Both the position numbers and the translations under genes were made by a program. The notes below the pieces were generated by a model. That model worked only from the letters and a program-made list of their open reading frames with translations. It did not search any database and was not told the DNA's origin. From positions 4,220-68,219 of the forward strand of contig CAYSZB010000003.1 of NCBI GenBank assembly GCA_964435475.1: a stretch of DNA of 64,000 nucleotides, written 5' to 3'. Below are positions 29,276 to 43,277 of the stretch, piece after piece. Numbering within the stretch: the stretch's first letter is position 1; each line of letters starts with the position of its first letter. This stretch comes from an uncultured Anaerolineaceae bacterium. GTDB taxonomy: Bacteria > Chloroflexota > Anaerolineae > Anaerolineales > Anaerolineaceae.

Positions 29276-30250
29276 CTAGCGGATGCGGAAGACGTCCCCG
29301 GGGTAGATGAAGTAAGGGTAGGTGAGGTTGTTCATGGCGGTGAACTGCTGCCAGGTGAGGTTATGTCTGGTGGCAAGGCCGACAAGTGTATCTCCTGCCT
29401 GGACAGTGATGAAGATGACGGGCGTGGCTGTCGGGGTAGGTGTGGCGGTGGGTGTGGGTGTTGCCGTGGAAGTGGGTGTCAGGGTGGGGGTGGGAGTTAG
29501 GGTTGGCGTGGGTGTTTGAGTGGGTGTAGACGTTATGGTGGGAGTAGGTGTTTGGGTTGGCGGGTCGGTTGGGGTGGGATCTGGGAAGTCCGCCAGGACA
29601 GCCTGGTTCTCAAGAACCGCCCATGATGACAGAAAATTATTCAGGTAATAGGTCTTTTCGGTGCCGGTGTAGGGGTCAATGGCGTAGATGATATCGCCAT
29701 CGTAGCCCTTGAGGATCATGGCATGCTCATAATGGGCGACGATAACCTGCCGACCTGCTTCAGTTGTATAGGTAATTTGGGTGCCATTCCACATTTCACT
29801 GATCACCCAGACGATGACCGGGTGGCCTGAGGCGATCTCCCACTGCAGGGTGGTCCAGTCGAGGTATTTTTGGGAATAGGCAGGCATGCCAAAGTCAGTC
29901 AACACCTGTGCCACAGGTTGTGAATGGACGCCGTAATCATAGGGTGGAATGCTGCCCCAGTAGCCGTTGATGTAGCCGACAAAACCGAGTTCAGGATCGT
30001 CGGAGGTCGGCATGGCATCGATGAACTGGTCTTCGGTGATGTAAACGCCAAAATAGGCAGCAAAATCAACGGCTGCGCGGGCTTCGCAGGAGAGGGTGTA
30101 TGCCTGGCGGTAACCATAAAGCCCTGAGATATATGCTTCTTCGGGCGGGGTGAATTGGGCTGAGACCGGTTTGGTAACCAGCGTTGCCAAAAACAGGAAG
30201 AGGCAGAGAAGGAGGGATATTTTTCGTCCTGGCGCAGTCATTTTCATCAT
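29276..30250 (-). CDS. secreted C39-like cysteine peptidase domain + Thr/Pro linker + C-terminal LysM domain
   Basis: A signal peptide starts at MMKMTAPGRKISLLLCLFLFLATLVTKPVSA. The candidate catalytic Cys is in YTLSCEARA and the His in YEHAMIL. A 55-aa TP-rich linker follows, then LysM (ITVQAGDTLVGLATRHNLTWQQFTAMNNL). I moved the start from 30319 to about 30250. Confidence 0.7.
   Translation of the reverse strand: MMKMTAPGRKISLLLCLFLFLATLVTKPVSAQFTPPEEAYISGLYGYRQAYTLSCEARAAVDFAAYFGVYITEDQFIDAMPTSDDPELGFVGYINGYWGSIPPYDYGVHSQPVAQVLTDFGMPAYSQKYLDWTTLQWEIASGHPVIVWVISEMWNGTQITYTTEAGRQVIVAHYEHAMILKGYDGDIIYAIDPYTGTEKTYYLNNFLSSWAVLENQAVLADFPDPTPTDPPTQTPTPTITSTPTQTPTPTLTPTPTLTPTSTATPTPTATPTPTATPVIFITVQAGDTLVGLATRHNLTWQQFTAMNNLTYPYFIYPGDVFRIR
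29420..29584 (-). repeat. low-complexity GGTGKG-type DNA encoding the (T/P)n linker
   Basis: It encodes PDPTPTDPPTQTPTPTITSTPTQTPTPTLTPTPTLTPTSTATPTPTATPTPTATP. Confidence 0.8.
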
Positions 30251-30381
30251 TATAGCTGAAGTAGATGCAATTATGGTGCCAGAGGTATTTGGATATCTTG
30301 CCAAATACGAGCAAACCATCCGTGCTACCTTGCTGGGAAGTGCGTTATGGGTTCTGGTATGAGGATGGTAAAGAAAAAAGT

Positions 30382-31813: not shown

Positions 31814-33400
31814 TTATCTGAAGATCAGGGGCAAAAATAGGTCATTCACAAGTTCATATTCATCAGCGCCAATGTCATAGGGGGTTGGACCAGAGCCGAT
31901 CGGCCTTATGCCTATCGTATCGATATCATCACCAGGTCCTTCTCCTAAAGACAGGCGATCGATAGCAGCAGAGCCTCTTAAGACATGCAGATCGCCATCA
32001 GACATGTTGACAAATTTCGGGTCACCATCAAACGGATTGGTACCGACTGAGCCATCACTGGAATTGCCAAAGAAGAGGTTTGATTCGATCGTGGCGGTTA
32101 CACCAGTGCCGAAATTATAGATCCCACCCTGACTGTGTGCAATGATGTTCTTTTTAATATATGGGTTGACATAGTCATTGATGTTGATCGCATCCACACC
32201 GCCAGCTATTGAATTCTGGTAAATGTACACAAGTAATTGGTCAGGACTGATTCCTACCAGATAAATATTCTTTTGGTTCACTCGCGAATCCCGAAGCGGA
32301 CTGTTGTAGGTAATGAAGTTGTTGCGGACTATATGGGAGTCCCTGCCCTCGAGGTGGATCAAGGAATCAGCAATGTTACCAGTAAAAACATTGCGTTCGA
32401 TGGTATTAAATGAACCACGGGATGGAGTCATAAAGCTGTGCAGGATGGTCCGACCGTAATTGCCTGAGATAAAGTTTTCTGCAAAGTAGAACGTGCTGCT
32501 GGACATCTCCAGGAAATAAACTGCCGCACCATCGATAGCGTTTTTCAGGTTGTTATTCTCAATAAAGGAATTACGATAGATTTCAAGATGCCCTGTTTGA
32601 TAGACAAGGATCGCACCTCCCCGACTGTAGTCAGATCCCGGTAAAGTATTCGCAGAAAAAACACACCCTGAGATGCCCCCTGTTGTTGGGACTGCTGCAC
32701 CTTCGACATAAATAGCACCGCCCATGCCAATCCCTGTTTGCCCGGAGGTGTTTTCGGTAAAGAGGGAGTCGTATATGAATAACTCATGCAGTTTATAAGC
32801 GTACAATGCACCGCCCATGGCAGTGCCCGCCCCGGTGGTATCCGAAGAAGCAACATTATGTTCAAAGGTGATATCTCCAAGGGTCAAGGACAGGATATCA
32901 TATGCGAAAATACCACCACCGCATCCCAGGGCAGGGGCACCACCTTTTAAGGGACAATAGCTGGTATTAATCCCATGGGCATCGCCGTTGCGGATCGTCA
33001 AACCGTTAAGATTGACATCCGTGTTTTCACCCTCGATGGTGATCACCCGGTGCATATTTTGTCCATCCAGGATACTCGGGGTAGTGGTGGGGGAACAATT
33101 GACATCACTTGCGCTGGTCCAGGTGCACCCGCCAAAAAGCGTAAATTGACCCTGGATATAAAGGACATGATGATCGCCAGAATCTTCAGCGTAGTAATTG
33201 CCTGAGTGTACATAAACGAAGTCGCCTGGTTGAGCTTTCTTGACCGCATATTGCAGGCTGCAGGGGGCATCGATGGTACAGTCTTCCCCTGAACCTTCTG
33301 GTGATGCATAGTACTGGACCCCGCGAGTCGCCTTTGCACTGGATAGCGAAAGTAATAAGAGCAAGACCAAGATGCTCAACAGTACAAGAAGTTTCTTCAT
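31814..33400 (-). CDS. secreted beta-helix-like protein, array paralog 1
   Basis: I use the ATG at 33400 (MKKLLVLLSILVLLLLLSLSSAKA), which has GGAGG upstream. Landmarks are APCSLQYAV, GCGGGIFA, GDLHV..GSAAID and DIGADEY. It ends in LFLPLIFR. Confidence 0.8.
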   Translation of the reverse strand: MKKLLVLLSILVLLLLLSLSSAKATRGVQYYASPEGSGEDCTIDAPCSLQYAVKKAQPGDFVYVHSGNYYAEDSGDHHVLYIQGQFTLFGGCTWTSASDVNCSPTTTPSILDGQNMHRVITIEGENTDVNLNGLTIRNGDAHGINTSYCPLKGGAPALGCGGGIFAYDILSLTLGDITFEHNVASSDTTGAGTAMGGALYAYKLHELFIYDSLFTENTSGQTGIGMGGAIYVEGAAVPTTGGISGCVFSANTLPGSDYSRGGAILVYQTGHLEIYRNSFIENNNLKNAIDGAAVYFLEMSSSTFYFAENFISGNYGRTILHSFMTPSRGSFNTIERNVFTGNIADSLIHLEGRDSHIVRNNFITYNSPLRDSRVNQKNIYLVGISPDQLLVYIYQNSIAGGVDAININDYVNPYIKKNIIAHSQGGIYNFGTGVTATIESNLFFGNSSDGSVGTNPFDGDPKFVNMSDGDLHVLRGSAAIDRLSLGEGPGDDIDTIGIRPIGSGPTPYDIGADEYELVNDLFLPLIFR

Positions 33401-33474
33401 GTTCACCTCCACAATTTCAATTACTGGCAATATGTAAAAACGTTCCAGGCAGGTATTTGGTTTGAACCACCTGC

Positions 33475-35037
33475 CTAGCGGAATAATAAGGGCAGGAATG
33501 TCAGACTAACAAATTCATCCGCGCCAAGATCTGAAGCACCAAATGTACGAGGTTGATAATCGATATCATTAATGACATTGAGAGTTTCCAATGCCATGTT
33601 AATCGCAGCAGAATTGGAACTTATGTGGAAGTCGCCATGCGCTGGATCTACCAGGCGCGGATTATGCGTATCGATCAAAGCATTGGTGCCTGTCCACCCG
33701 CCACCAAATGCCCAAAACAGGTTGCGGTCGATCTCTTCACCCACAGGCTCCGAGATATAGATCGCATCTTCATTAATAAATGCAAAGATATTATTCTTTA
33801 CAGTCATTGTTGAGACTTCACTTGCAGAAATCCCACGATCGAGTTTGGCAAAGGTGTTAAATTTAATATTAACTGAGGAATTCAGGTTTGATAAAGATAC
33901 AGCAGTATTCATTCCGCCCCTATCCGGATCGTCCTGCCGTAAGGTTTCAGCATGCCCGAAAAAATTATTTTGGATATTTGTCGGGTTATACCCTGTAATC
34001 TGAACCATATCCAGGGATGTGTTGTTCCAGAATTTATTATTTTCGATCTTATCCCAAGCCGTCGCGGTATCACGCGTTGAAGTGATCACACTGCTGCCCT
34101 GGTTACCCTCAAAATAGTTACCTGCCAACCCGAATTGCCCATTCATGCGGAAATATAATGCACTACCTTTTATTAACTTGGCCTCTTGAGAATTTCCAAG
34201 GGTGAATGCGTTCTGATAAACAAATAAATAGTAAGAGGAATTGAAGAATGCATGGCATCCCAGGCTGTCAGCATCTGTCATGGTACAGTCGTTCTGATGG
34301 AAATCGTTGAATTCTATTTGACCATATTCAGAAATATCTTGAACGAAAAGTCCTCCACCAAATCCCAAGCCGTTAACCGATGCAGTATTGTGAGCAATTT
34401 CATTGTAATCGAAGGTTAACGTATCGATATCTTCCAAATACACCCCACCGCCATATCCGGCAGTAAAAGGCGATAACGTGGCATCATTGCTTTTAATGTG
34501 GTTATTGCGCATTGTCAAGCTATCCAGGTTACTGGCATATAAACCTGCTCCACATCCTGATGTGGTGATCCCAACAGGGTTAAGATCGGTGGGGCAATCT
34601 GCAGTGTCGATCCCTTGGGCTTTCCCGTAAGAGATTGTCAGGTTGTAAAGTTGAACATTTTCAATGCCAGTTCCTTGTATGGTAATTCCCCGACGGGCAT
34701 TATCACCATCAATCAAAGTGGAAGGAATAGTATCTGGAATGCAATTCCAAAATGGACCACTGCATCCACCATAAATTTGCAGGCTTTTATCGATGAACAG
34801 AACTTGATCGCCTGATGCAGCTGTATAATTTCCCACTTGAATATATATTGTGTCACCACTTGCAGCTGATTTGGCAGCATGCTGCAAAGAACATGGATCT
34901 TCGGGGGTACAGGCATCAGTATTTGTACCTGCCATGGAAACGTACCAACTCGCTTCTGCCTGGACTTTATTTCTGGGAACGCCAAGCAGGGTGAGCAGGA
35001 AAATAAAGGTGAAGAAAAAGTTAATTAGCCGTTTCAT
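33475..35037 (-). CDS. secreted beta-helix-like protein, array paralog 2
   Basis: 520 aa with a signal peptide. Landmarks are DPCSLQHAA, GCGAGLYA, NNFFGH, GDFHI..NSAAIN and DLGADEF. It ends in TFLPLLFR. Confidence 0.8.
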   Translation of the reverse strand: MKRLINFFFTFIFLLTLLGVPRNKVQAEASWYVSMAGTNTDACTPEDPCSLQHAAKSAASGDTIYIQVGNYTAASGDQVLFIDKSLQIYGGCSGPFWNCIPDTIPSTLIDGDNARRGITIQGTGIENVQLYNLTISYGKAQGIDTADCPTDLNPVGITTSGCGAGLYASNLDSLTMRNNHIKSNDATLSPFTAGYGGGVYLEDIDTLTFDYNEIAHNTASVNGLGFGGGLFVQDISEYGQIEFNDFHQNDCTMTDADSLGCHAFFNSSYYLFVYQNAFTLGNSQEAKLIKGSALYFRMNGQFGLAGNYFEGNQGSSVITSTRDTATAWDKIENNKFWNNTSLDMVQITGYNPTNIQNNFFGHAETLRQDDPDRGGMNTAVSLSNLNSSVNIKFNTFAKLDRGISASEVSTMTVKNNIFAFINEDAIYISEPVGEEIDRNLFWAFGGGWTGTNALIDTHNPRLVDPAHGDFHISSNSAAINMALETLNVINDIDYQPRTFGASDLGADEFVSLTFLPLLFR

Positions 35038-35130
35038 TGTTTACCTCCAGTAAATGTGCTGAGATGCTTTGAATGACCTGTATTGGTGCACTTTGCGGGT
35101 TCAAGTTATTCGTATTTTGAGTATATGAAG

Positions 35131-35159
35131 ATAATATTCCTTTCTCACAGAAATATCAA
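35131..35159 (-). promoter_or_regulatory. candidate sigma70-type promoter for paralogs 2-1
   Basis: The minus strand reads cCTATTGATAT-N17-TATTAT. The -35 lies at 35154-35159 and the -10 at 35131-35136, about 95 nt upstream of the ATG. Confidence 0.4.
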
Positions 35160-35251
35160 TAGGCGAATGGGGAATATTCTTAAAATCGCATACACCCTTG
35201 ATCAATGATATGGCTGTCATTTATTGTGAAAGTCAAACTACATTTTATGCC

Positions 35252-36865
35252 TTATCTGAAAATCATGGGCAGGAAATAACTGTAATAACACTCATCCGCT
35301 CCAATATCCGGACCTGACCCAAATGGGCGCAACTGGAGGTCAATATCCCTGTCATAACGAAGGTCAAAAGCGGAATCAATTGCCCTGGAATTCGGTTGAA
35401 GATGGAAATCGCCATTATCCACATCCACGAAGTTAGGAAAATGATGGAGCAAGTTAGTCGTTGGAATGTCGCCGCCTGTGCCATTCATCGATTCAATGTT
35501 TGTAGTACCGGTGATACTAGGCGTTCCACCGCCGATGGTCGCATGAGAAAGCACAGCAGTATCTGTATAGGCAATAATGTTATTGGTAATATACGCGTCA
35601 ACAAAATCCCTGACATAGATTCCACGATCGAGCATGGCGATGGTATTGTGATACAACTCTGCATACATCCTATGTCCATAGATATATCCATCAAGGAAAA
35701 CACCAGTAAATGTTTTTTCATCTGTGTAGTCCGGACTATACCCGATAAAATTGTTACTTAGCCTTAAAAAGTCATGACCACTGACAGAAATAGCATTAGC
35801 AGCATAATTGTTCCAGAATTTATTCTGGCTGATATGGTCATATGTTGAATTTTCTGACATATAGGCAAATAGAACTGAGTTGCCCCTGTTCATTGTAAAA
35901 GTGTTTCGATATGCAAGGAACATACCGGTGAGATCAGAATAGATAGCCCCTCCTTCTTTACCAGTTTTGGTGTTGATCGGGATGTTGGAGTTGTTCATGT
36001 TAAATTTACTGTCAAGGATCTCGGCATAATTGGACTGGTTAATATGGATTGCACATCCTTCCCCGACATCATCTGTAAAACTGCAATGATTGGAATCAAA
36101 AATGTTGTATTTGAACTCATTCCAATCGCTTTGGGTCAATATTGCCCCACCATACCCGCTGCCATCACCCACAGCTGTGTTGCCATAAAAAGTTGAGTTC
36201 GTCACTGTGAGGGGACCGCTGTTTTGAAAATGGATGGCACCGCCAGTCCCCTGGAGATCTGAAATGGCTGTGGTATTAAAATATGCATAATTGCCCTGGA
36301 ACCAGCAATTGTCAATGCTCAATGTCAGGGTCCCGTTGGATAATGCATGGATCCCTCCACCACATCCAACCGGATCACCATTGCCATAATCATTGCAGTT
36401 TGACGTATTCGGATCTTCTGTTCCCAGACCATTGATGATCTTGAGGTTCCTGAATACAAAGGTCTCATTCCCAGAGGTCGATATTTTAATGACTCGCCCA
36501 TCACTTTGCCCATCCAGGATGGAATAACCATTGGCGACTGAACAAATGGCGGTGCCACTGGAAAAATTACAGCTACCGATGAGTTCAACGCTATCCCAAA
36601 GGATCACTACCTCACTGAAATTTTGATATGATGCAGAATAAGTTCCAGTTTTGATATAAATGATGGCATCATTAATGGTATCTTGATTGGACGAGTAGAC
36701 TGCACGCTCGAGAGAACATGGCTCCGAAATCGTACAAGCATCATCCCAAGTACCATCTGCTGCAGCATACAATACCAGGGTAACCGCTTGCACAGATTGC
36801 TGTGGGCTGGCTGATAGACCTGCCAGGCAGATCAGAATGAACATGCATGAGAATATTTTCTTCAT
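35252..36865 (-). CDS. secreted beta-helix-like protein, array paralog 3
   Basis: 537 aa with a signal peptide. Landmarks are EPCSLERAV, GCGGGIHA, NKFWNN, GDFHL..NSRAID and DIGADEC. It ends in YFLPMIFR. Confidence 0.8.
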   Translation of the reverse strand: MKKIFSCMFILICLAGLSASPQQSVQAVTLVLYAAADGTWDDACTISEPCSLERAVYSSNQDTINDAIIYIKTGTYSASYQNFSEVVILWDSVELIGSCNFSSGTAICSVANGYSILDGQSDGRVIKISTSGNETFVFRNLKIINGLGTEDPNTSNCNDYGNGDPVGCGGGIHALSNGTLTLSIDNCWFQGNYAYFNTTAISDLQGTGGAIHFQNSGPLTVTNSTFYGNTAVGDGSGYGGAILTQSDWNEFKYNIFDSNHCSFTDDVGEGCAIHINQSNYAEILDSKFNMNNSNIPINTKTGKEGGAIYSDLTGMFLAYRNTFTMNRGNSVLFAYMSENSTYDHISQNKFWNNYAANAISVSGHDFLRLSNNFIGYSPDYTDEKTFTGVFLDGYIYGHRMYAELYHNTIAMLDRGIYVRDFVDAYITNNIIAYTDTAVLSHATIGGGTPSITGTTNIESMNGTGGDIPTTNLLHHFPNFVDVDNGDFHLQPNSRAIDSAFDLRYDRDIDLQLRPFGSGPDIGADECYYSYFLPMIFR

Positions 36866-36887: not shown

Positions 36888-38537
36888 CTATTTGAAGAGA
36901 ATTGGTATAAAGGTTTGCAGGATCAGTTCGTCTGCTCCCAAGTCGTAGGGAGTGGCACTCACACCGAAGGGGCGGGCTTGCATGTCAATGTCCTCTGAAG
37001 GGACACCCAACCCGGAGGATGCCTTATCTGTTGCTGCTGAAGGGTAGGCAAGGTGAAAGTCACCCGTGGTGATATCCGCCAGGTTGGGATCGGCATAAAC
37101 GGGCATGGACCCGGTGTCACCATTGGCGAAGTTGTCCCAATACAGGTTTCTTACGACGGAAGTCGCGGCTCCACCGAATAAAGCTATGTTACTGATATGG
37201 GCGAATATATTGTTGTAAGCCTCGACCAGGACCATATCATCGCTGGAAAACCCGATATCCAGGGCTGCAAAAGTGTTATTGAAGATCCAGGCAGAGGTGT
37301 TGTCAGTTGGACCACCACTGGTGATCAGGCGAATGCCTGTCTGACCACCTCCACGATCCTGAAAGTCCCTGATTGGGATATTATGGCCAAAGAAGTTGTT
37401 GCGGATCATGACCCAATAGATACCTTCATAGTTCAGAAGGTAAAAAACATCATTATCCCAGAACTTGTTGCGTTCGAATACATCATCCGGGGTAGCGAAG
37501 TCATTCCATACCTCAACGGCTGAATAGCCGTAATTCCCAGTAAAAGTATTGGTCAGGAGCTTCAGCCCACCACTGTTATTGACATAGATGGCACTGCCAT
37601 GCAATGGCTGGGGCGTCGTTGGATTGTTGCTGTCTTCGAACTGGTTATAAGCGACAGCAGCCGTTGGGGTGTTGAGGATGAAAAGCCCACATCCCTTATC
37701 AGTTGTGGTGGTACCTGATTGTCCGCAATCATTTTCCAAAAAATGGTTGCCTTTGATCTCGATTTTGCCAACCCCGCCAGGGTTTCCGGCCAGGGCGATG
37801 GCACCACCATAGCCCCTACCAGCGACATATGCCTGGTTGGAATTGAACTCGTTGTTCCTGATGTGAATGTCGCTTACATCCTGCAGGTAAATTGCACCGC
37901 CGTACCCAACGCCAGGTGCGCCGGCAAGAGGTTGCTGAGCACCAGAGTTATCATAAAAGAAGCAATTTTCGATGGTCAAAGATGCCAACTGGTTGGCATA
38001 AATGCCACCACCGCAGCCCACAGTTACACCAGTACCATCGCTGTAACACGGTAAATCATTGATGATCCCATCACCAATGCCCCGTACTATGTGCAGATTT
38101 CTTAGGGTCACAGAAGGGCGAAATGCCTTGCTGCCCTGGATGGTTATAACACGGGTAAAAGGCCAGACCGGATCATGGTGAGGGTCGCCATCAAAGATGG
38201 AACTGGTATACTGGTAACCCAATTCACACGTTGAATAATCTTCGTTGCAGCCCCCGATGATGGTCAGGCTTTTATCAATGTAAAGTACCTCATCATCGGT
38301 GCTGTCATGAACAACATAAGGTCCATATCTTAGGTAGATGGTATCGCCATTGCCTGCCAGGTCAACGGCATCCCAGAGAGAGCATTCGTTGCCAATGGTA
38401 CAGTTATCTGCTCCAACCGGTCCAGCAGCAGCATACCAGGTGTCCGGGACAGCTTTTACTGGCAGGGGTTGAGAAGCAAGAATTATCAGGATAAGAAAGG
38501 CTGCGATATTGAATAAGTAGCGTGATGACTTGATCAT
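36888..38537 (-). CDS. secreted beta-helix-like protein, array paralog 4
   Basis: 549 aa with a signal peptide. Landmarks are NECSLWDAV, GCGGGIYA, NKFWDN, NNFFGH, GDFHL and DLGADEL. It ends in TFIPILFK. Confidence 0.8.
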   Translation of the reverse strand: MIKSSRYLFNIAAFLILIILASQPLPVKAVPDTWYAAAGPVGADNCTIGNECSLWDAVDLAGNGDTIYLRYGPYVVHDSTDDEVLYIDKSLTIIGGCNEDYSTCELGYQYTSSIFDGDPHHDPVWPFTRVITIQGSKAFRPSVTLRNLHIVRGIGDGIINDLPCYSDGTGVTVGCGGGIYANQLASLTIENCFFYDNSGAQQPLAGAPGVGYGGAIYLQDVSDIHIRNNEFNSNQAYVAGRGYGGAIALAGNPGGVGKIEIKGNHFLENDCGQSGTTTTDKGCGLFILNTPTAAVAYNQFEDSNNPTTPQPLHGSAIYVNNSGGLKLLTNTFTGNYGYSAVEVWNDFATPDDVFERNKFWDNDVFYLLNYEGIYWVMIRNNFFGHNIPIRDFQDRGGGQTGIRLITSGGPTDNTSAWIFNNTFAALDIGFSSDDMVLVEAYNNIFAHISNIALFGGAATSVVRNLYWDNFANGDTGSMPVYADPNLADITTGDFHLAYPSAATDKASSGLGVPSEDIDMQARPFGVSATPYDLGADELILQTFIPILFK

Positions 38538-38577: not shown

Positions 38578-40149
38578 TCATTTAAACAGGATCGGCAGGT
38601 AGGTTTGTTTTATGAACTCGTCTGCACCCAGGTCATAAGGAGTAGCACCGACTCCAAAAGGACGTGCCTGGTTATCAATATCATTGATCTCAGCAAATGA
38701 AAGTGTGTAAGTTCCCTGATTAATAGCTGCTGAATTGATTGCTATATGAAAATCGCCGTTCATTGGATCTGCCAGGAGTGGGTCTCCCCAAGCGGGATCG
38801 GTTCCTCCCATACTATCACCTGGGAAGGCATTATGAAACAGATTACGGATGATCTGTCCACTTGATACTCCGGTTATTGCACTTCCGTATATTTCTGCAA
38901 AAATATTGTTCTGGATCGTGCCACCAGCTAAGGTATCGGTGATGACCCCGTAGTCCAATATCGCAAATGTATTAAAATATATCGCTGCTGAACCTGACCC
39001 ATTATCATTTTCGTACATGTAAATCCCCGTTTGCCCACCACTGCGGGTCTTGTCCCGGGTGGGGCTAGTTGGTTTTTGCCCGATCCAATTGTTCATGATG
39101 CGGGCACCAAAGTAACCGGTGTATTCGATGACATTTAATACCTGGTTGTCCAGAAATTTATTTCGCAACACTCTATCCAATGGGGTTGGGTCGTATGAAT
39201 CAACCATTAAGACGGATTTGCCGTTTTCGTTGGAAAATGTATTTTCAATAATGTCAGTGCCTGAGGTATAGCCCACAAAGATCGATCCGCCTTCGTAGTT
39301 ATAGGCTGGTCCCAGATTATTATTATTACTGAATAAATTCCCAACAATATCGAAATAATGACTACCTATGTATATCGCACAACCCTGACTGCCAGGTCCG
39401 TTTAGAGGGCTGCAGTTATTTGAGTCAAACAGGTTGTTGCTGATAACAAGATCGTAACTTGGTGAGGAGGAGCCGGTGAATATTGCACCACCATACCCTA
39501 TCCCATCATTAACTGCTGTGTTATCAAGAAACTGATTGTCACTGATATTAATGTGGTTTCCTCCAAAAACAGCCATGGCTCCTCCATGGCCTTCATATAT
39601 TGCGCCAACGCCAACCTTCCTGGCAGCAAAATTCTGGTAAAACTTACATTCCGTGACATCCAGGGACTCGAATAATGTTGCATTTAGTCCACCCCCAACC
39701 CCTTTCAACGTAGCTATTTCAGTAGCATTGCCATGTGCTATGTCAAAAAACCTTAACGAAACCGAGATATTATTACCAGCTGCTCCCGTGATGGTAATAA
39801 CGCGCCGTTCCAGCTCACCATCCAATATGGATGAGGGGTTCTTAGCAGAGCAGGTCGCAGTCAGTCCTGAAAATGAGCAGCGTCCCACCAGGCTGAGATC
39901 CTTATTGATTAATAATACCTGAGCAGCCTTTGACGTGTAGGTTCCGGACTCAACATAAACCGTATCTCCTGACCCGGCAATATCCACAGCATGCTGCAAG
40001 GTACAGGGAGAAATAAGCGGGCAAGTTGGGTTGGTTGCCGAGCCGGTAGGAGAAGCATAATGATCGGTAAACGCTGAGACTGGTCGAACGGTATTTGAAA
40101 TAGCCAGAATCATCATTCCCAAGGTCGCGATAATGATCAACTTTTTCAT
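38578..40149 (-). CDS. secreted beta-helix-like protein, array paralog 5
   Basis: 523 aa with a signal peptide. Landmarks are SPCTLQHAV, GVGGGLNA, GDFHI..NSAAIN and DLGADEF. It ends in TYLPILFK. Confidence 0.8.
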   Translation of the reverse strand: MKKLIIIATLGMMILAISNTVRPVSAFTDHYASPTGSATNPTCPLISPCTLQHAVDIAGSGDTVYVESGTYTSKAAQVLLINKDLSLVGRCSFSGLTATCSAKNPSSILDGELERRVITITGAAGNNISVSLRFFDIAHGNATEIATLKGVGGGLNATLFESLDVTECKFYQNFAARKVGVGAIYEGHGGAMAVFGGNHINISDNQFLDNTAVNDGIGYGGAIFTGSSSPSYDLVISNNLFDSNNCSPLNGPGSQGCAIYIGSHYFDIVGNLFSNNNNLGPAYNYEGGSIFVGYTSGTDIIENTFSNENGKSVLMVDSYDPTPLDRVLRNKFLDNQVLNVIEYTGYFGARIMNNWIGQKPTSPTRDKTRSGGQTGIYMYENDNGSGSAAIYFNTFAILDYGVITDTLAGGTIQNNIFAEIYGSAITGVSSGQIIRNLFHNAFPGDSMGGTDPAWGDPLLADPMNGDFHIAINSAAINQGTYTLSFAEINDIDNQARPFGVGATPYDLGADEFIKQTYLPILFK

Positions 40150-40280
40150 GAGATTCTCCTTTGGTAGAAGAAAACAAAATTGTTGAATATAGATTACAAA
40201 TGGTTGATGAAAGAACTCCCCTTATCCTTTGAACGGTGAAAAATCACAGAACATAATTGGGTAAAGGTATTGATACATTT

Positions 40281-40309
40281 ATATTAGCACTTAACATTTG
40301 GGATTTCAA
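40281..40309 (-). promoter_or_regulatory. candidate sigma70-type promoter for paralogs 5-4-3
   Basis: The minus strand reads gCTATTGAAATCC-N-TAATAT, that is TTGAAA-N17-TAATAT. The 12-mer ggatttcaatag (40301-40312) is repeated at 42243-42254. Confidence 0.4.
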
Positions 40310-40482
40310 TAGCCAATATGTGAATTTCGGATTGATAAGTTTGTCTAATCAATATTATTATTTGAAGGTGAAGAGCTCATTTTTAGGAAGGGATAACCCT
40401 CATAATACAAAAATACTGGTTGTACAGGGATTCACAAGACACATTTCAAAATTTGTGACTGACTGATGGTTTATTAATGAAG

Positions 40483-42084
40483 TTATCTAAACACAACTGG
40501 CATAAAAGTCTGCAACATGAACTCATCAGCCCCGACATCATAATTGTCCGGTTCGACGCCGACGGGGCGTATCTGTCCATCAATGTCGACCCCGCCCTGC
40601 CATGAGAAGACCTTATCAATGGCAGCTGAACCTGGCTGGATGTGATAATCACCTGAATCTGGATCGGCCAAGAGTGGATCGCCGGTAAAAAATTCCGTAC
40701 CAAATGTTCCATAAGGGGAATTATCATGAAATAGATTCTTTGTTATGGTAAAAGTTGTGGTTGGTGGAAAAATCAGATAAATAGCTGCTTCATCAAGAAT
40801 TTGAGTAAATATATTTCTTTCAATATTGATGTCCGAGTTTTCATCTACCGCTACCCCAACGCTCAATTTTACAAAGGTGTTATAACCGACATACACATCC
40901 GGATTACCGTTAGTAGTATCGCCTAAAGTGTAGATACCTATGAAGTAGCCATGCCACTCAGCAGGATTGTTTGTCCCAACAAAGTTATTCATGAACATTA
41001 CTTCCGCATCACCCAAAACTTCGAGATTAATGTATGTGTCTTCGCGGACGATCTTGTTCATTTGCATGCCTACTATCGTGTTGCCGTCGCCGATACCTTC
41101 GATAAGAATAGATGACAGACCATAATTGCTATGGAACTCGTTATTTTGTATGTAAGCATATTTGGTGTGTTTAAAATAAATAGAACTGCCATAAACATTA
41201 CGTCGAAGGATATTCTCCTGCCAAAGGAAGTCATTATTTACCACCAATATATCTTCAGAATCAACTGCCAGGATTGCTGCCCCCATGGCATCCAACTTTT
41301 CTTTATTACCGGTCAGCTCATTGCCATAAAACAGGTTATCTTCGATCAGAACACCATCGATCGCGCCTGAATCTTCAATGTAGATCCCACCACCATAGCC
41401 CTTGCCCTGCCTGGCTGCCTGGTTAAATTGGAAGGTGTTATTTTTTACAACGAGATGTCCAACCTGCTCCGAATAGAGTCCGCCTCCCAGGGATACAGCA
41501 GTTGTGGTGTCACTGCGGCCGGCGAAATTTGCCCAGATGAAATTATTTCGCAATTCCAGGTGGTCGACTCCCTCAGCAAAGATGCCACCTCCACAACCCA
41601 GGACAGGTGCGCCAAAGGCGGTGGAACAGGACCCTGGACCGACCCCTTCAGCGTTGCCCTGCAAAATGGTGAAGCCTTCGATGGTGACTGTCATGCCGTC
41701 GCCGGGAAGTCCCTGGATGGCGATGCCACGCATGGTGTTCTCGGCGCGGATGTTGGAGGTATAAGTCTCCGGGTGGCAGGTGACCGGCCCTGTAACTGCC
41801 CACTCACAGGAGCCTATGATATGCAAGCTTTTGTAAATGTACATAACATAGCTGTCAGACGAAAAGGGGGCATAATAATTCCCGGATTTTGCCAGGATAG
41901 TATCCCCACTGGACGATTTCATCTGAACTGCGTTGTCAATCTTGCATGGGTTTGCCTGGGAACAATCGCCACCACTTCCGGCCGGAGAGACATACCAGGT
42001 ATTGACTGCCCTTGGGGCTTCGAGGGGAGCAAAAGATAGCTGGCTCAACAGGAGAACCAGGATCAACACAAACGATTTTTTCAT
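40483..42084 (-). CDS. secreted beta-helix-like protein, array paralog 6
   Basis: 533 aa with a signal peptide. Landmarks are NPCKIDNAV, GCGGGIFA, GDYHI..GSAAID and DVGADEF. It ends in TFMPVVFR. Confidence 0.8.
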   Translation of the reverse strand: MKKSFVLILVLLLSQLSFAPLEAPRAVNTWYVSPAGSGGDCSQANPCKIDNAVQMKSSSGDTILAKSGNYYAPFSSDSYVMYIYKSLHIIGSCEWAVTGPVTCHPETYTSNIRAENTMRGIAIQGLPGDGMTVTIEGFTILQGNAEGVGPGSCSTAFGAPVLGCGGGIFAEGVDHLELRNNFIWANFAGRSDTTTAVSLGGGLYSEQVGHLVVKNNTFQFNQAARQGKGYGGGIYIEDSGAIDGVLIEDNLFYGNELTGNKEKLDAMGAAILAVDSEDILVVNNDFLWQENILRRNVYGSSIYFKHTKYAYIQNNEFHSNYGLSSILIEGIGDGNTIVGMQMNKIVREDTYINLEVLGDAEVMFMNNFVGTNNPAEWHGYFIGIYTLGDTTNGNPDVYVGYNTFVKLSVGVAVDENSDINIERNIFTQILDEAAIYLIFPPTTTFTITKNLFHDNSPYGTFGTEFFTGDPLLADPDSGDYHIQPGSAAIDKVFSWQGGVDIDGQIRPVGVEPDNYDVGADEFMLQTFMPVVFR

Positions 42085-42269: not shown

Positions 42270-43277
42270 ATGAGCAAACCTGATTTGACCTTCTTTTGTG
42301 AATTGGAAGCAGCGCCCCTGGAGAAATTCTTCCAGGATCGCTTCATCATGGATGACCTGAAGGCCTTAAATGCCCGCTTGAGCCTGGGCATCCTGGACCT
42401 TTCGGATGAGCGTGCCCAGGTGGTTAAAAAGCTTAACAAGCTGGGAGTGAAGGTGATCGCCTGGCTTTTGCTGCCGAAAAACGAAGGTTACTGGTTCAAC
42501 CTGGATAACCATCCACAGGCTGTGGCGCGCTATGAGGCTTTTAAAGCCTGGAGCGCGGCAAACGAGTTGAAGTGGGATGGCATCGGTCTGGACATTGAAC
42601 CGGACATCAACACCTTCCAGGAGACACGTCACAAGAAGCTCGCCATGCTGCCGGAACTCTTCAAACGGCTTTTGGATGGCAGGCGGGTCAGGCAGGCACA
42701 GGAGGCTTACCGCAAGCTGGTTGAGCAGATGCACGCTGATGGTTTCTATGTAGAGTCATACCACCTGCCATTGATCATCGATGAACGCAAAGCGCACTCT
42801 ACGGTCATACAGCGCCTGGCGGGGTTGGTCGACCTGGAGGTGGATCATGAAGTGCTGATGCTCTATTCGAGCTTCATGCGTCCGCATGGTCAGGAGATCC
42901 TCTGGCAGTACGCCAAAGAGGCGGACTCGGTAGGAATTGGTAACACGGGCGGTGGGGTTGACCTTGAGGGTGTGATCGACGTGCCCCCGCTGAGCTGGGA
43001 GGAGTTTTCGAAGGACCTGAGGCTGGCGCATGCCAGCGGCAAGCCAGTGCACATCTTCTGCCTGGAGGGGTGCGTGGCACAGGGCTTTCTGGAAAAGTTG
43101 TCTACTTTTAACTGGGATGAAAAGGAGGTGGCACCCGGCAGCCTGCTGGTCAGAACGGGGCGGGGGATCCTGCAGACGGTGTTGTGGAACATGCAGAGGC
43201 CCTGGGTGTTGCCGGTGACACTCCTGGGGGTGATCGGTGGCATCCTGGTCATTAGAGACAGGAAGAAACGACAATAA
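42270..43277 (+). CDS. hypothetical protein with C-terminal TM anchor (possible divergent TIM-barrel glycosidase-like fold)
   Basis: 335 aa with AAGGAAG SD. DGIGLDIEPD resembles the DGxDxDxE-type strand of GH18-like barrels. The C-terminus is WVLPVTLLGVIGGILVIRDRKKRQ. Confidence 0.5.
   Translation: MSKPDLTFFCELEAAPLEKFFQDRFIMDDLKALNARLSLGILDLSDERAQVVKKLNKLGVKVIAWLLLPKNEGYWFNLDNHPQAVARYEAFKAWSAANELKWDGIGLDIEPDINTFQETRHKKLAMLPELFKRLLDGRRVRQAQEAYRKLVEQMHADGFYVESYHLPLIIDERKAHSTVIQRLAGLVDLEVDHEVLMLYSSFMRPHGQEILWQYAKEADSVGIGNTGGGVDLEGVIDVPPLSWEEFSKDLRLAHASGKPVHIFCLEGCVAQGFLEKLSTFNWDEKEVAPGSLLVRTGRGILQTVLWNMQRPWVLPVTLLGVIGGILVIRDRKKRQ

What the first reader, a model, noticed from the sequence alone, without database searches (positions are those of the whole stretch)
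31814..31861. Conserved ultra-short C-terminal tail [FYL][LIM]P[LIMV][LIV]F[RK]-COOH on all six paralogs: candidate new sorting/anchoring tag
A few residues after D(I/L/V)GADE, every paralog ends with the same hydrophobic heptad plus a terminal basic residue:
- GADEYELVNDLFLPLIFR
- GADEFVSLTFLPLLFR
- GADECYYSYFLPMIFR
- GADELILQTFIPILFK
- GADEFIKQTYLPILFK
- GADEFMLQTFMPVVFR

The equivalent positions in the other genes lie just above their stops at 33475, 35252, 36888, 38578 and 40483.

Proteins that have otherwise diverged strongly still keep their extreme C-terminus, including the final R/K. That is the behaviour of a C-terminal sorting or processing signal.

The tail does not fit the known classes:
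- It is far too short for the tripartite signals (LPXTG, PEP-CTERM, GlyGly-CTERM, PGF-CTERM), which have a motif, a TM helix and a basic cluster.
- It does not end in an aromatic residue, unlike an outer-membrane beta-signal.

Choice-of-anchor-type domains are named for sitting in front of varied sorting signals, which makes an undescribed tag plausible. The alternative is that the tail is simply the last capping strand of the beta-helix.
Basis: partly seen in the sequence, partly recalled or inferred. Interest (0 to 1): 0.7.

Follow-up and report, generated by a model that had tools for sequence, protein, structure and literature searches.

The report
YLP-box C-terminal sorting tail, divergent copies
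Six neighbouring secreted beta-helix proteins of an Anaerolineaceae bacterium end in a 7-residue tail that is a divergent form of the "YLP-box", a C-terminal tag found on many unrelated exported Chloroflexota proteins; NCBI already curates it as a putative sorting motif, but how it works is unknown.

Summary
All six minus-strand paralogs end GADE-x(4-7)-[FY][LIM]P[LIMV][LIV]F[RK]-stop. No other ORF in the window does.

The tail is not specific to this protein family. One degenerate DNA pattern for [FY]LPL[IVM]-hydrophobic-R-TGA, scanned over 185,579 species genomes, returned 120 loci:
- 64 loci were Chloroflexota, and 57 of their 65 hits end an ORF of at least 100 aa.
- 10 of 56 hits in other phyla do so, and 0 of 56 in a viral control run with a closely related pattern.

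The carriers have signal peptides and unrelated domains: GH44, GH26, amidase, M23, SpoIID, C25 peptidase, LRR, RCC1, DUF11.

Beta-helix relatives carry LPXTG, T9SS or MYXO/PEP-CTERM-like signals at the same position.

The tag is not undescribed. NCBIfam release 20 holds NF050076 (sort_motif_YLP) and NF053834 (ultrashort_CTERM), both named "YLP-box putative sorting motif". Canonical tails and some beta-helix homologues match them. The six window tails do not, so they are a divergent flavour with F at position -2.

I found no paper and no partner enzyme.

Verdict: a real sorting-type tag, a new member of a curated kind, with the mechanism open.

The parts
31814..33430 (-). Paralog 1: signal peptide, right-handed beta-helix, GADE, tail LFLPLIFR-stop. 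The tail codons are 31817-31837. The likely true start is the ATG at 33400 (MKKLLVLL...).
   Evidence: ORF and translation; Pfam Beta_helix and NosD; codons.
33475..35037 (-). Paralog 2, tail TFLPLLFR-stop (tail codons 33478-33498).
35252..36865 (-). Paralog 3, tail YFLPMIFR-stop (tail codons 35255-35275).
   Evidence: NCBIfam choice_anch_Q scores 18.4 bits against a cut-off of 25.
36888..38537 (-). Paralog 4, tail TFIPILFK-stop (tail codons 36891-36911). This is the most divergent tail, with a position-matrix score of -1.6.
38578..40149 (-). Paralog 5, tail TYLPILFK-stop (tail codons 38581-38601). This is the protein modelled with AlphaFold2.
40483..42084 (-). Paralog 6, tail TFMPVVFR-stop (tail codons 40486-40506).

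Best explanation
The heptapeptide is a divergent copy of the Chloroflexota 'YLP-box', an ultrashort C-terminal linear motif. Its general form is [RQK]-[LVI]-[YF]-L-P-[LIV]-[VI]-x-[RK], at or within about 4 residues of the C-terminus.

**Shown here.**
- It is appended to Sec-exported proteins of many unrelated families.
- It evolves under protein-level selection.
- It is restricted essentially to Chloroflexota (Anaerolineae and Chloroflexia).
- It occupies the slot where homologues in other phyla carry established sorting signals.

**Inferred.**
- After export, the flexible tail is read in trans by an envelope factor not yet identified. That factor could be a receptor, or a peptidase or transpeptidase.
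- This retains or attaches the cargo at the cell surface or cell wall of these monoderm filaments.
- Because there is no transmembrane helix, recognition cannot work like sortase, exosortase, rhombosortase or myxosortase, which act on a membrane-held substrate.
- Whether the tail is cleaved is unknown.

**The cargo in this window.** The six proteins are secreted beta-helix proteins resembling carbohydrate-active enzymes or adhesins. They carry a family-specific flavour of the tag: T at -8, F at -2, R or K at -1.
For: **Cross-family and clade-restricted.**
- 64 of the 120 loci returned by the genome scan are Chloroflexota. 57 of their 65 hits terminate ORFs of at least 100 aa, against 10 of 56 elsewhere (Fisher p = 3e-15).
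- The viral control gave 0 of 56.
- About 12 further tails that the scan pattern had not selected for were found on neighbouring genes. 64 of all 65 tails in these loci end exactly at R/K.

**Cargo.**
- Nearly all complete carriers start with a signal-peptide-like N-terminus.
- Pfam domains found: DUF11, GH44+CBM11, Amidase_2+PA14, Vgb_lyase/SGL, SpoIID, M23, PMT_2, glucoamylase, LRR, RCC1, CBM9, PD40, Peptidase_C25+cadherin, GH26, Laminin_G_3.

**Choice of anchor.** Beta-helix relatives end in an LPKTG/LPQTG motif followed by a transmembrane segment and basic residues, or in a T9SS C-terminal domain (PF18962), or in MYXO/PEP-CTERM-like signals. About 40 others end in YLP tails.

**Curated models.**
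- NF050076 and NF053834 'YLP-box putative sorting motif' hit canonical tails at 13-18 bits.
- They also hit beta-helix homologues P0006, L005 and L190.

**Window tails.**
- They score -1.6 to 22.4 on a position matrix built from canonical tails. The background of 2,574 ORF ends has a mean of -23.7 and a standard deviation of 6.9.
- Their codons differ at synonymous sites.

**Structure.** The tail is not a regular strand. Its pLDDT of 70-78 equals that of the signal peptide, against more than 90 for the core.

**Host and location.**
- The window is from Anaerolineaceae.
- Cysteines C43, C49 and C91 are conserved, which is consistent with an extracytoplasmic location.
Against: - No partner enzyme or receptor was found. 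Neighbourhood clustering gave only ABC ATPases and epimerases, and four more contexts gave nothing recurrent.
- No experimental data or paper exists in the searched library.
- The six window tails do not reach either NCBIfam model.
- In metagenomic relatives, 18 of 39 tails have 1-4 extra residues after the basic residue. A strict free-carboxylate read-out at a fixed distance is therefore unlikely.
- With the deeper alignment, AlphaFold2 gives the tail moderate confidence rather than low confidence. Some packing onto the body is not excluded, because I had no access to the model coordinates.
Confidence: 0.6

Rival explanations
1. The tail anchors the protein by itself. A short hydrophobic stretch flanked by basic residues dips into the outer leaflet of the membrane, or into a hydrophobic envelope layer, and holds the protein there without any dedicated enzyme or receptor.
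For: - The motif is 7-8 hydrophobic residues bracketed by R/K/Q at -9 and R/K at -1.
- There is no conserved small-residue cleavage site.
- No partner gene was found.
- Extra residues after the basic residue are tolerated.
Against: - The stretch is far too short to span a bilayer. By the Wimley-White interfacial scale (my own knowledge, not computed with a tool), VYLPLVL contributes only about -2 kcal/mol.
- L-P is near-invariant and the aromatic at -7 is conserved (64/64 L, 64/64 P; 57/57 P). That is the signature of a specific binding site, not of generic hydrophobicity.
- Restriction to one phylum argues for a lineage-specific reader.
Confidence: 0.15
2. The tail is a structural element of the cargo, such as a last capping strand or a hydrophobic latch that packs onto the beta-helix.
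For: - With a 44-sequence alignment, AlphaFold2 gives the tail pLDDT 70-78 rather than below 50.
- In other lineages the GADE motif is also followed by a short hydrophobic tail, of the form xxIFxxGFE.
Against: - The same tail follows completely unrelated domains and low-complexity linkers rich in Pro/Thr or Glu.
- In P0013, P0018, P0020 and P0024 it lies 130-320 residues after the GADE motif.
- DSSP assigns it no strand, and its confidence equals that of the cleaved signal peptide.
- With the shallower alignment it had pLDDT below 50.
Confidence: 0.05
3. The tail is a processing or turnover signal rather than a localisation signal. It would be recognised by an extracytoplasmic tail-specific or PDZ-type protease (Ctp/Prc or HtrA-like), for maturation, activation or quality control of exported proteins.
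For: - The motif is C-terminal, hydrophobic and exposed.
- The cargo includes enzymes that often need controlled activation: cell-wall hydrolases M23, Amidase_2 and SpoIID, and Peptidase_C25.
Against: - Known tail-specific proteases prefer non-polar C-terminal residues, not a terminal Arg or Lys (my own knowledge).
- Variable extensions of 0-4 residues after the basic residue fit poorly with PDZ-type recognition of a free carboxylate.
- Homologues carry true anchoring signals, not degrons, at this position.
Confidence: 0.15
4. The shared tail is a chance or DNA-level artefact: recent gene conversion among tandem paralogs, or an overlapping terminator or repeat.
For: The six genes are tandem paralogs on one strand.
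Against: - Tail codons and stop codons differ between the paralogs.
- The tail is kept in homologues of 24-61% identity from other assemblies, and in the syntenic locus L202.
- It occurs in hundreds of unrelated genes.
Confidence: 0.01

Closest known systems
NCBIfam NF050076.1 sort_motif_YLP and NF053834.1 ultrashort_CTERM ('YLP-box putative sorting motif-containing protein')
   Same: - Same position at the extreme C-terminus.
- Same aromatic-L-P-L-aliphatic-x-basic core.
- Same phylum.
- Same type of carrier: signal-peptide proteins of many families.
- Homologues of the window proteins (P0006, L005, L190) reach the NF053834 cut-off.
   Different: - The six window tails give no reported hit to either model.
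- They have T instead of V/L/I at -8, I or M allowed at -6, I/M/V at -4, an invariant F at -2, and K as often as R.
- The models are database curation. I found no publication and no mechanism.
Tripartite C-terminal sorting signals (LPXTG/sortase, PEP-CTERM/exosortase, PGF-CTERM/archaeosortase, GlyGly-CTERM/rhombosortase, MYXO-CTERM/myxosortase; architecture as defined in bioRxiv 10.1101/2023.06.07.544157)
   Same: - C-terminal position on signal-peptide proteins.
- Many unrelated cargo families per genome.
- Lineage-restricted.
- A short signature motif, then hydrophobic residues, then a basic residue: a miniature of the same order.
- Interchangeable with these signals in beta-helix homologues.
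   Different: - There is no transmembrane helix, only 3 hydrophobic residues after the Pro.
- There is a single basic residue instead of an Arg cluster.
- The whole signal is 8-10 residues, against 20-35.
- No cognate intramembrane or membrane-anchored enzyme is known.
Eukaryotic ultrashort C-terminal receptor-read signals (KDEL/HDEL, PTS1 -SKL)
   Same: A very short C-terminal linear motif that works on any cargo. This is an analogy of mechanism only, drawn from my own knowledge.
   Different: There is no homology. These signals sit in a different compartment and domain of life, and they require an exact C-terminal position. The YLP-box tolerates 0-4 trailing residues.
Choice-of-anchor Q domain (NCBIfam NF041518)
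   Same: The region just upstream of the tail (DPxLVD...GDFH...SAAID...DIDGxxRP...D[ILV]GADE) aligns to positions 16-57 of this 58-position model.
   Different: Scores of 15.1-18.4 bits are below the cut-off of 25. This describes the cargo domain, not the tail.

Membership tests
YLP-box putative sorting motif (NCBIfam NF050076 / NF053834) | HMM score at or above the curated cut-off (15 bits for NF050076, 10 bits for NF053834). | tested here: not met
   None of the six window tails gave a reported hit at E<=10. HMMER's filters drop weak hits, so the exact scores are unknown. Family homologues pass NF053834: P0006 13.2 bits, L005 13.6 bits (and 15.3 on NF050076), L190 13.3 bits.
YLP-box putative sorting motif (NCBIfam NF050076 / NF053834) | Aromatic-L-P-L-aliphatic-x-basic core at the extreme C-terminus. 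| tested here: met
   [FY][LIM]P[LIMV][LIV]F[RK]-stop in 6 of 6. Position-matrix scores of -1.6 to 22.4 against a background mean of -23.7 and SD of 6.9. Five of the six exceed every background ORF end that had not itself been picked by the scan pattern.
YLP-box putative sorting motif (NCBIfam NF050076 / NF053834) | Carrier is an exported protein with an N-terminal signal peptide. | tested here: met
   N-termini of the form MKK, hydrophobic stretch, A-x-A. N-terminal helix at residues 2-17 in the model. Conserved Cys pairs. This is heuristic only, as no SignalP was available.
YLP-box putative sorting motif (NCBIfam NF050076 / NF053834) | Host lineage is Chloroflexota, where the motif decorates many unrelated families. 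| tested here: met
   The best named hits of the window's Mfd protein are Anaerolineaceae, at 62-76% identity. Distribution of the motif.
Tripartite C-terminal sorting signals (LPXTG, PEP-CTERM, GlyGly-CTERM, PGF-CTERM, MYXO-CTERM) | A hydrophobic segment long enough for a transmembrane helix after the signature motif. | tested here: not met
   Only 3 residues lie between the Pro and the terminal R/K.
Tripartite C-terminal sorting signals (LPXTG, PEP-CTERM, GlyGly-CTERM, PGF-CTERM, MYXO-CTERM) | A cluster of basic residues at the C-terminus. | tested here: not met
   There is a single R or K. No NCBIfam sorting-signal model was hit by the full proteins at E<=0.1.
Outer-membrane beta-signal | A terminal aromatic residue on a beta-barrel protein of a diderm. 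| tested here: not met
   The terminal residue is R or K. The fold is a soluble right-handed beta-helix.
T9SS C-terminal domain (PF18962 / TIGR04183) | A folded C-terminal domain of about 70-100 aa. | tested here: not met
   No Pfam or NCBIfam hit in the window proteins. The domain is present in distant relatives P0042, P0054, P0059, P0061, P0065 and P0093.
Choice-of-anchor Q domain (NF041518) | HMM score of at least 25 bits. | tested here: not met
   15.1-18.4 bits for three paralogs and no hit for the other three. The similarity is real but sub-threshold.
Right-handed parallel beta-helix (Pfam PF13229 / PF05048) | Pfam score above the gathering threshold, and a beta-helix fold. | tested here: met
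   PF13229 scores 34-60 bits in four paralogs. AlphaFold2 mean pLDDT 90. Foldseek matches to LnbX, Pel9A and PL6 lyases at E of 1e-6 to 1e-3.

The most novel reading that the evidence does not exclude
The YLP-box would be a mechanistically new class of bacterial protein sorting. It would be an 8-10 residue C-terminal signal with no membrane-spanning segment, read outside the cell by a dedicated Chloroflexota envelope receptor or transpeptidase that is not yet identified. The window's F-at-minus-2 / T-at-minus-8 flavour, which is missed by the curated HMMs but conserved across two syntenic genomes, would mark a sub-specificity: a second reader or a different destination for this beta-helix family.
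Probability: 0.3. Interest if true: 0.7.

Novelty: new member of a known kind. Interest (0 to 1): 0.35.

Why it matters
**Why the biology is interesting.** Chloroflexota are abundant filamentous bacteria in sludge, sediments and hot springs, and how they build and decorate their cell surface is poorly understood. A tag of fewer than ten residues, found on hydrolases, proteases, cell-wall enzymes and adhesin-like proteins, would be the main handle for predicting their surface proteome. Because it lacks a transmembrane helix, it cannot work like any characterised sortase-type system.

**What this adds for annotation.**
- The motif's sequence space is wider than the two NCBIfam models capture. 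All six proteins here, and their relatives in a syntenic genome, are missed.
- The beta-helix family gives a clean 'choice of anchor' series: YLP-box, LPXTG, T9SS and MYXO/PEP-like signals at one position.

**What it does not add.** It does not reveal a new kind of system, because the motif is already curated.

Tried and rejected
- **Capping-strand idea.** Two AlphaFold2 runs. The shallow alignment gave pLDDT below 50 for the whole last 60 residues, which is uninformative. The deeper alignment gave 70-78 for the tail with no strand. I rejected the idea mainly on the cross-family distribution.
- **Partner enzyme by gene neighbourhood.** All-against-all clustering of 1,211 ORFs from 71 sources (69 tail-bearing or syntenic loci plus the window) found only ABC ATPases and NAD-epimerases recurring. 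Four further contexts with precomputed Pfam showed nothing recurrent.
- **The neighbouring C39-like+LysM gene (29276-30319).** It is conserved in the syntenic locus L202 but absent from all other tail loci, so I rejected it as a general partner.
- **Literature.** Searches for the peptide strings, for 'YLP-box', and for Chloroflexota sorting signals found nothing relevant.
- **PDB sequence search.** No solved homologue covers the GADE-plus-tail region.
- **Considered but not run.** Tail-only searches of the 5.8-billion and 1.84-billion protein sets. A 7-10 residue profile cannot reach significance at that database size.
Full report
**1. The observation**

Window positions 31.8-42.1 kb carry six tandem minus-strand ORFs of 520-549 aa. 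Each begins with a signal-peptide-like N-terminus (MKK, a hydrophobic stretch, then A-x-A). Each contains right-handed beta-helix repeats: Pfam Beta_helix or NosD above threshold in four of them. Each ends D[ILV]GADE-x(4-7)-[FY][LIM]P[LIMV][LIV]F[RK]-stop.

The given coordinates 31814-31861 are the stop codon plus the last 15 codons of the first paralog. No other long ORF in the 64-kb window ends this way.

The paralogs are 31-37% identical overall, but the Pro is invariant in all 17 family members aligned. Tail codons and stop codons differ between the paralogs. Conservation therefore acts on the peptide, not on the DNA.

**2. Is the tail a property of this family only?**

No.

*Within the family.* The closest homologues keep the tail. 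Two proteins on contig L001 carry it without a GADE motif in front...WKIYIPLVTRNKS and ...FVFLPLAIRNSH.

*Genome-wide scan.* I scanned one genome from each of 185,579 species for TWYCTNCCNCTNRTNNTNCGNTGA, which encodes [FY]LPL[IVM]-hydrophobic-R-TGA. The scan stopped at its 120-locus limit.
- 64 loci are Chloroflexota: Anaerolineae including Caldilineaceae, and Chloroflexia including Roseiflexus, Oscillochloris and Viridilinea. By my own knowledge, this phylum makes up only a few percent of species.
- 57 of the 65 Chloroflexota hits lie at the very end of an ORF of at least 100 aa.
- Only 10 of 56 hits in other phyla do so (Fisher p = 3e-15). Most of those are off-frame ORFs or cytoplasmic or membrane proteins that match by chance.

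*Control.* A closely related pattern (TAYCTNCCNCTNGTNNTNCGNTRR) run on viral contigs gave 0 of 56 hits at the end of a long ORF.

*Unselected neighbours.* In the same Chloroflexota loci, about 12 further tails that the scan pattern had not selected for sit on neighbouring genes. 64 of all 65 tails end exactly at R/K. The loose motif occurs internally only 11 times in 259,049 aa.

*Consensus.* A logo from 57 tails not selected by the DNA pattern is [RQK]-[LVI]-[YF]-L-P-[LIV]-[VI]-x-[RK], followed by 0-4 residues.

**3. Who carries it**

Nearly all complete carriers have a signal-peptide-like N-terminus. Their Pfam content is unrelated from one to the next:
- Glycoside hydrolases and carbohydrate-binding modules: GH44+CBM11, GH26, glucoamylase, CBM9.
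- Cell-wall enzymes: Amidase_2+PA14, Peptidase_M23, SpoIID.
- Proteases: Peptidase_C25 with cadherin-like domains.
- Repeat and adhesin-like domains: DUF11, LRR, RCC1, PD40, Laminin_G_3.
- Others: Vgb_lyase/SGL propeller, and a PMT_2 membrane glycosyltransferase.

This is the cargo spectrum typical of surface-anchoring signals.

**4. Choice of anchor**

A profile search with the family alignment returned 101 proteins, bringing the session's set to 102. About 40 end in YLP-type tails. Others of the same beta-helix type end differently:
- LPKTG or LPQTG, then a transmembrane segment, then a basic tail (P0053-P0081).
- A T9SS C-terminal domain, PF18962 (P0042, P0054, P0059, P0061, P0065, P0093).
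- MYXO/PEP-CTERM-like ends (P0102, P0070).
- Dockerin-like repeats.

The tail therefore occupies the slot of established sorting signals.

**5. Already known?**

Yes, at the level of database curation. NCBIfam release 20.0 contains NF050076.1 'sort_motif_YLP' (11 positions, cut-off 15 bits) and NF053834.1 'ultrashort_CTERM' (10 positions, cut-off 10 bits). Both are described as 'YLP-box putative sorting motif-containing protein'.
- Canonical tails score 13-18 bits.
- Beta-helix homologues P0006 (LYLPLIMN), L005 (LYLPLVMRRG) and L190 pass NF053834.
- The six window tails give no reported hit.

On a position matrix built from canonical tails the window tails score -1.6 to 22.4. The background of 2,574 ORF ends has a mean of -23.7 and an SD of 6.9. 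They are therefore a divergent flavour of the same motif: T at -8, F at -2, R or K at -1.

The flavour is shared by the syntenic locus L202 from a related assembly. Other Anaerolineaceae proteins use the canonical form, so the flavour looks family-specific.

I found no paper on the motif. The 2023 survey of C-terminal sorting signals defines the tripartite architecture of motif, transmembrane helix and Arg cluster, and does not mention this motif.

**6. Structure**

With 17 sequences, AlphaFold2 modelled the whole last 60 residues poorly.

With 44 sequences the model reached mean pLDDT 90:
- The beta-helix core is above 90.
- Residues 511-520 average 78 and residues 521-523 average 70.
- No strand is assigned to the tail.

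That confidence level equals that of the N-terminal signal peptide (70-77), which is certainly not part of the mature fold. The structural test is only weakly informative.

Foldseek places the body among beta-helix carbohydrate-active enzymes: LnbX, Pel9A and PL6 lyases, and also Rhombotarget A.

**7. Context**

The window comes from an Anaerolineaceae bacterium. The best named hits of its Mfd protein are Anaerolineaceae at 62-76% identity.

The cluster is flanked by housekeeping genes: RsmG/GidB, two DedA/VTT proteins, FolD, amidohydrolases, YdjC, a GPH symporter and a GT2 glycosyltransferase.

Two other neighbours are conserved in the syntenic locus L202 but not near tail-bearing genes elsewhere:
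- A secreted Peptidase_C39_2+LysM protein (29276-30319).
- A 335-aa membrane-anchored protein of unknown function (42270-43277).

**8. Mechanism**

*Shown.* The tail is a portable, selected, phylum-restricted C-terminal linear motif on exported proteins, interchangeable with known anchors.

*Inferred.* It is read in trans outside the cytoplasmic membrane and retains or attaches the cargo at the envelope. It cannot be handled like LPXTG, PEP-CTERM or GlyGly-CTERM, because there is no membrane-spanning segment. Whether it is cleaved is unknown.

*Rivals.*
- Autonomous interfacial anchor: weak by hydrophobicity, and at odds with the invariant L-P.
- Protease-recognition tail.
- Structural cap: contradicted by the cross-family spread.
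- DNA-level artefact: refuted.

No candidate reader emerged from gene neighbourhoods.

**9. Verdict**

The interpretation as a sorting-type tag is supported, but the tag is not new. These six are new, divergent members of the curated YLP-box class, which current HMMs miss. The open and interesting part is the mechanism of the class as a whole.

Noticed in passing
L008-L012, L017, L021, L022 (metagenome loci) and P0098: In beta-helix relatives from other lineages, the GADE motif is followed by a different ultrashort C-terminal tail of the form x(3-6)-[IVL]IF[AKS]x[GDS]F[EQ]-stop. Examples are EIIFANGFE*, DVIFKDDFEG* and DRIFAGGFQ*. No NCBIfam model matches it at E<=1. It may be a second ultrashort tag that has not been described.
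   Followed up: partly
L116:4959-5987 (-), complete genome CP006914.1, candidate division WWE3: A 328-aa signal-peptide protein of a CPR bacterium ends ...GKYEVFLPLILR, a perfect YLP-box outside Chloroflexota. It sits between two large membrane proteins. It has no Pfam hit. It could be chance, horizontal transfer, or a wider distribution of the tag.
   Followed up: partly
window 29276-30319 (-): A secreted Peptidase_C39_2 domain, then a Pro/Thr-rich linker, then a LysM domain, encoded about 1.5 kb beyond the 3' end of the cluster with the rsmG/gidB gene in between. It is conserved but split by a frameshift in the syntenic locus L202. It is absent from other tail-bearing loci, so it is probably not the reader of the tag.
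   Followed up: partly
window 42270-43277 (+): A 335-aa protein with a C-terminal transmembrane anchor and no Pfam or NCBIfam match, transcribed divergently from the beta-helix cluster. It is 76% identical in the syntenic locus L202. Function unknown.
   Followed up: no
L141:2704-4149 (-): A polytopic PMT_2-family membrane glycosyltransferase also ends in a YLP-box (FFLPLVMR). The tag is therefore not confined to soluble secreted proteins. Here its C-terminus would have to face outward.
   Followed up: no
L171:2392-7593 (+), MAG labelled 'Proteobacteria bacterium': A 1,734-aa signal-peptide protein ends NQVFLPLVLR, the best position-matrix score in the 'non-Chloroflexota' set. The contig is probably a mis-binned Chloroflexota fragment.
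   Followed up: no
window 35038-35251 and 40150-40482: Two of the gaps between the paralogs are long (214 and 333 bp), while the others are 22-44 bp. This suggests the six genes form more than one transcription unit. Not examined.
   Followed up: no
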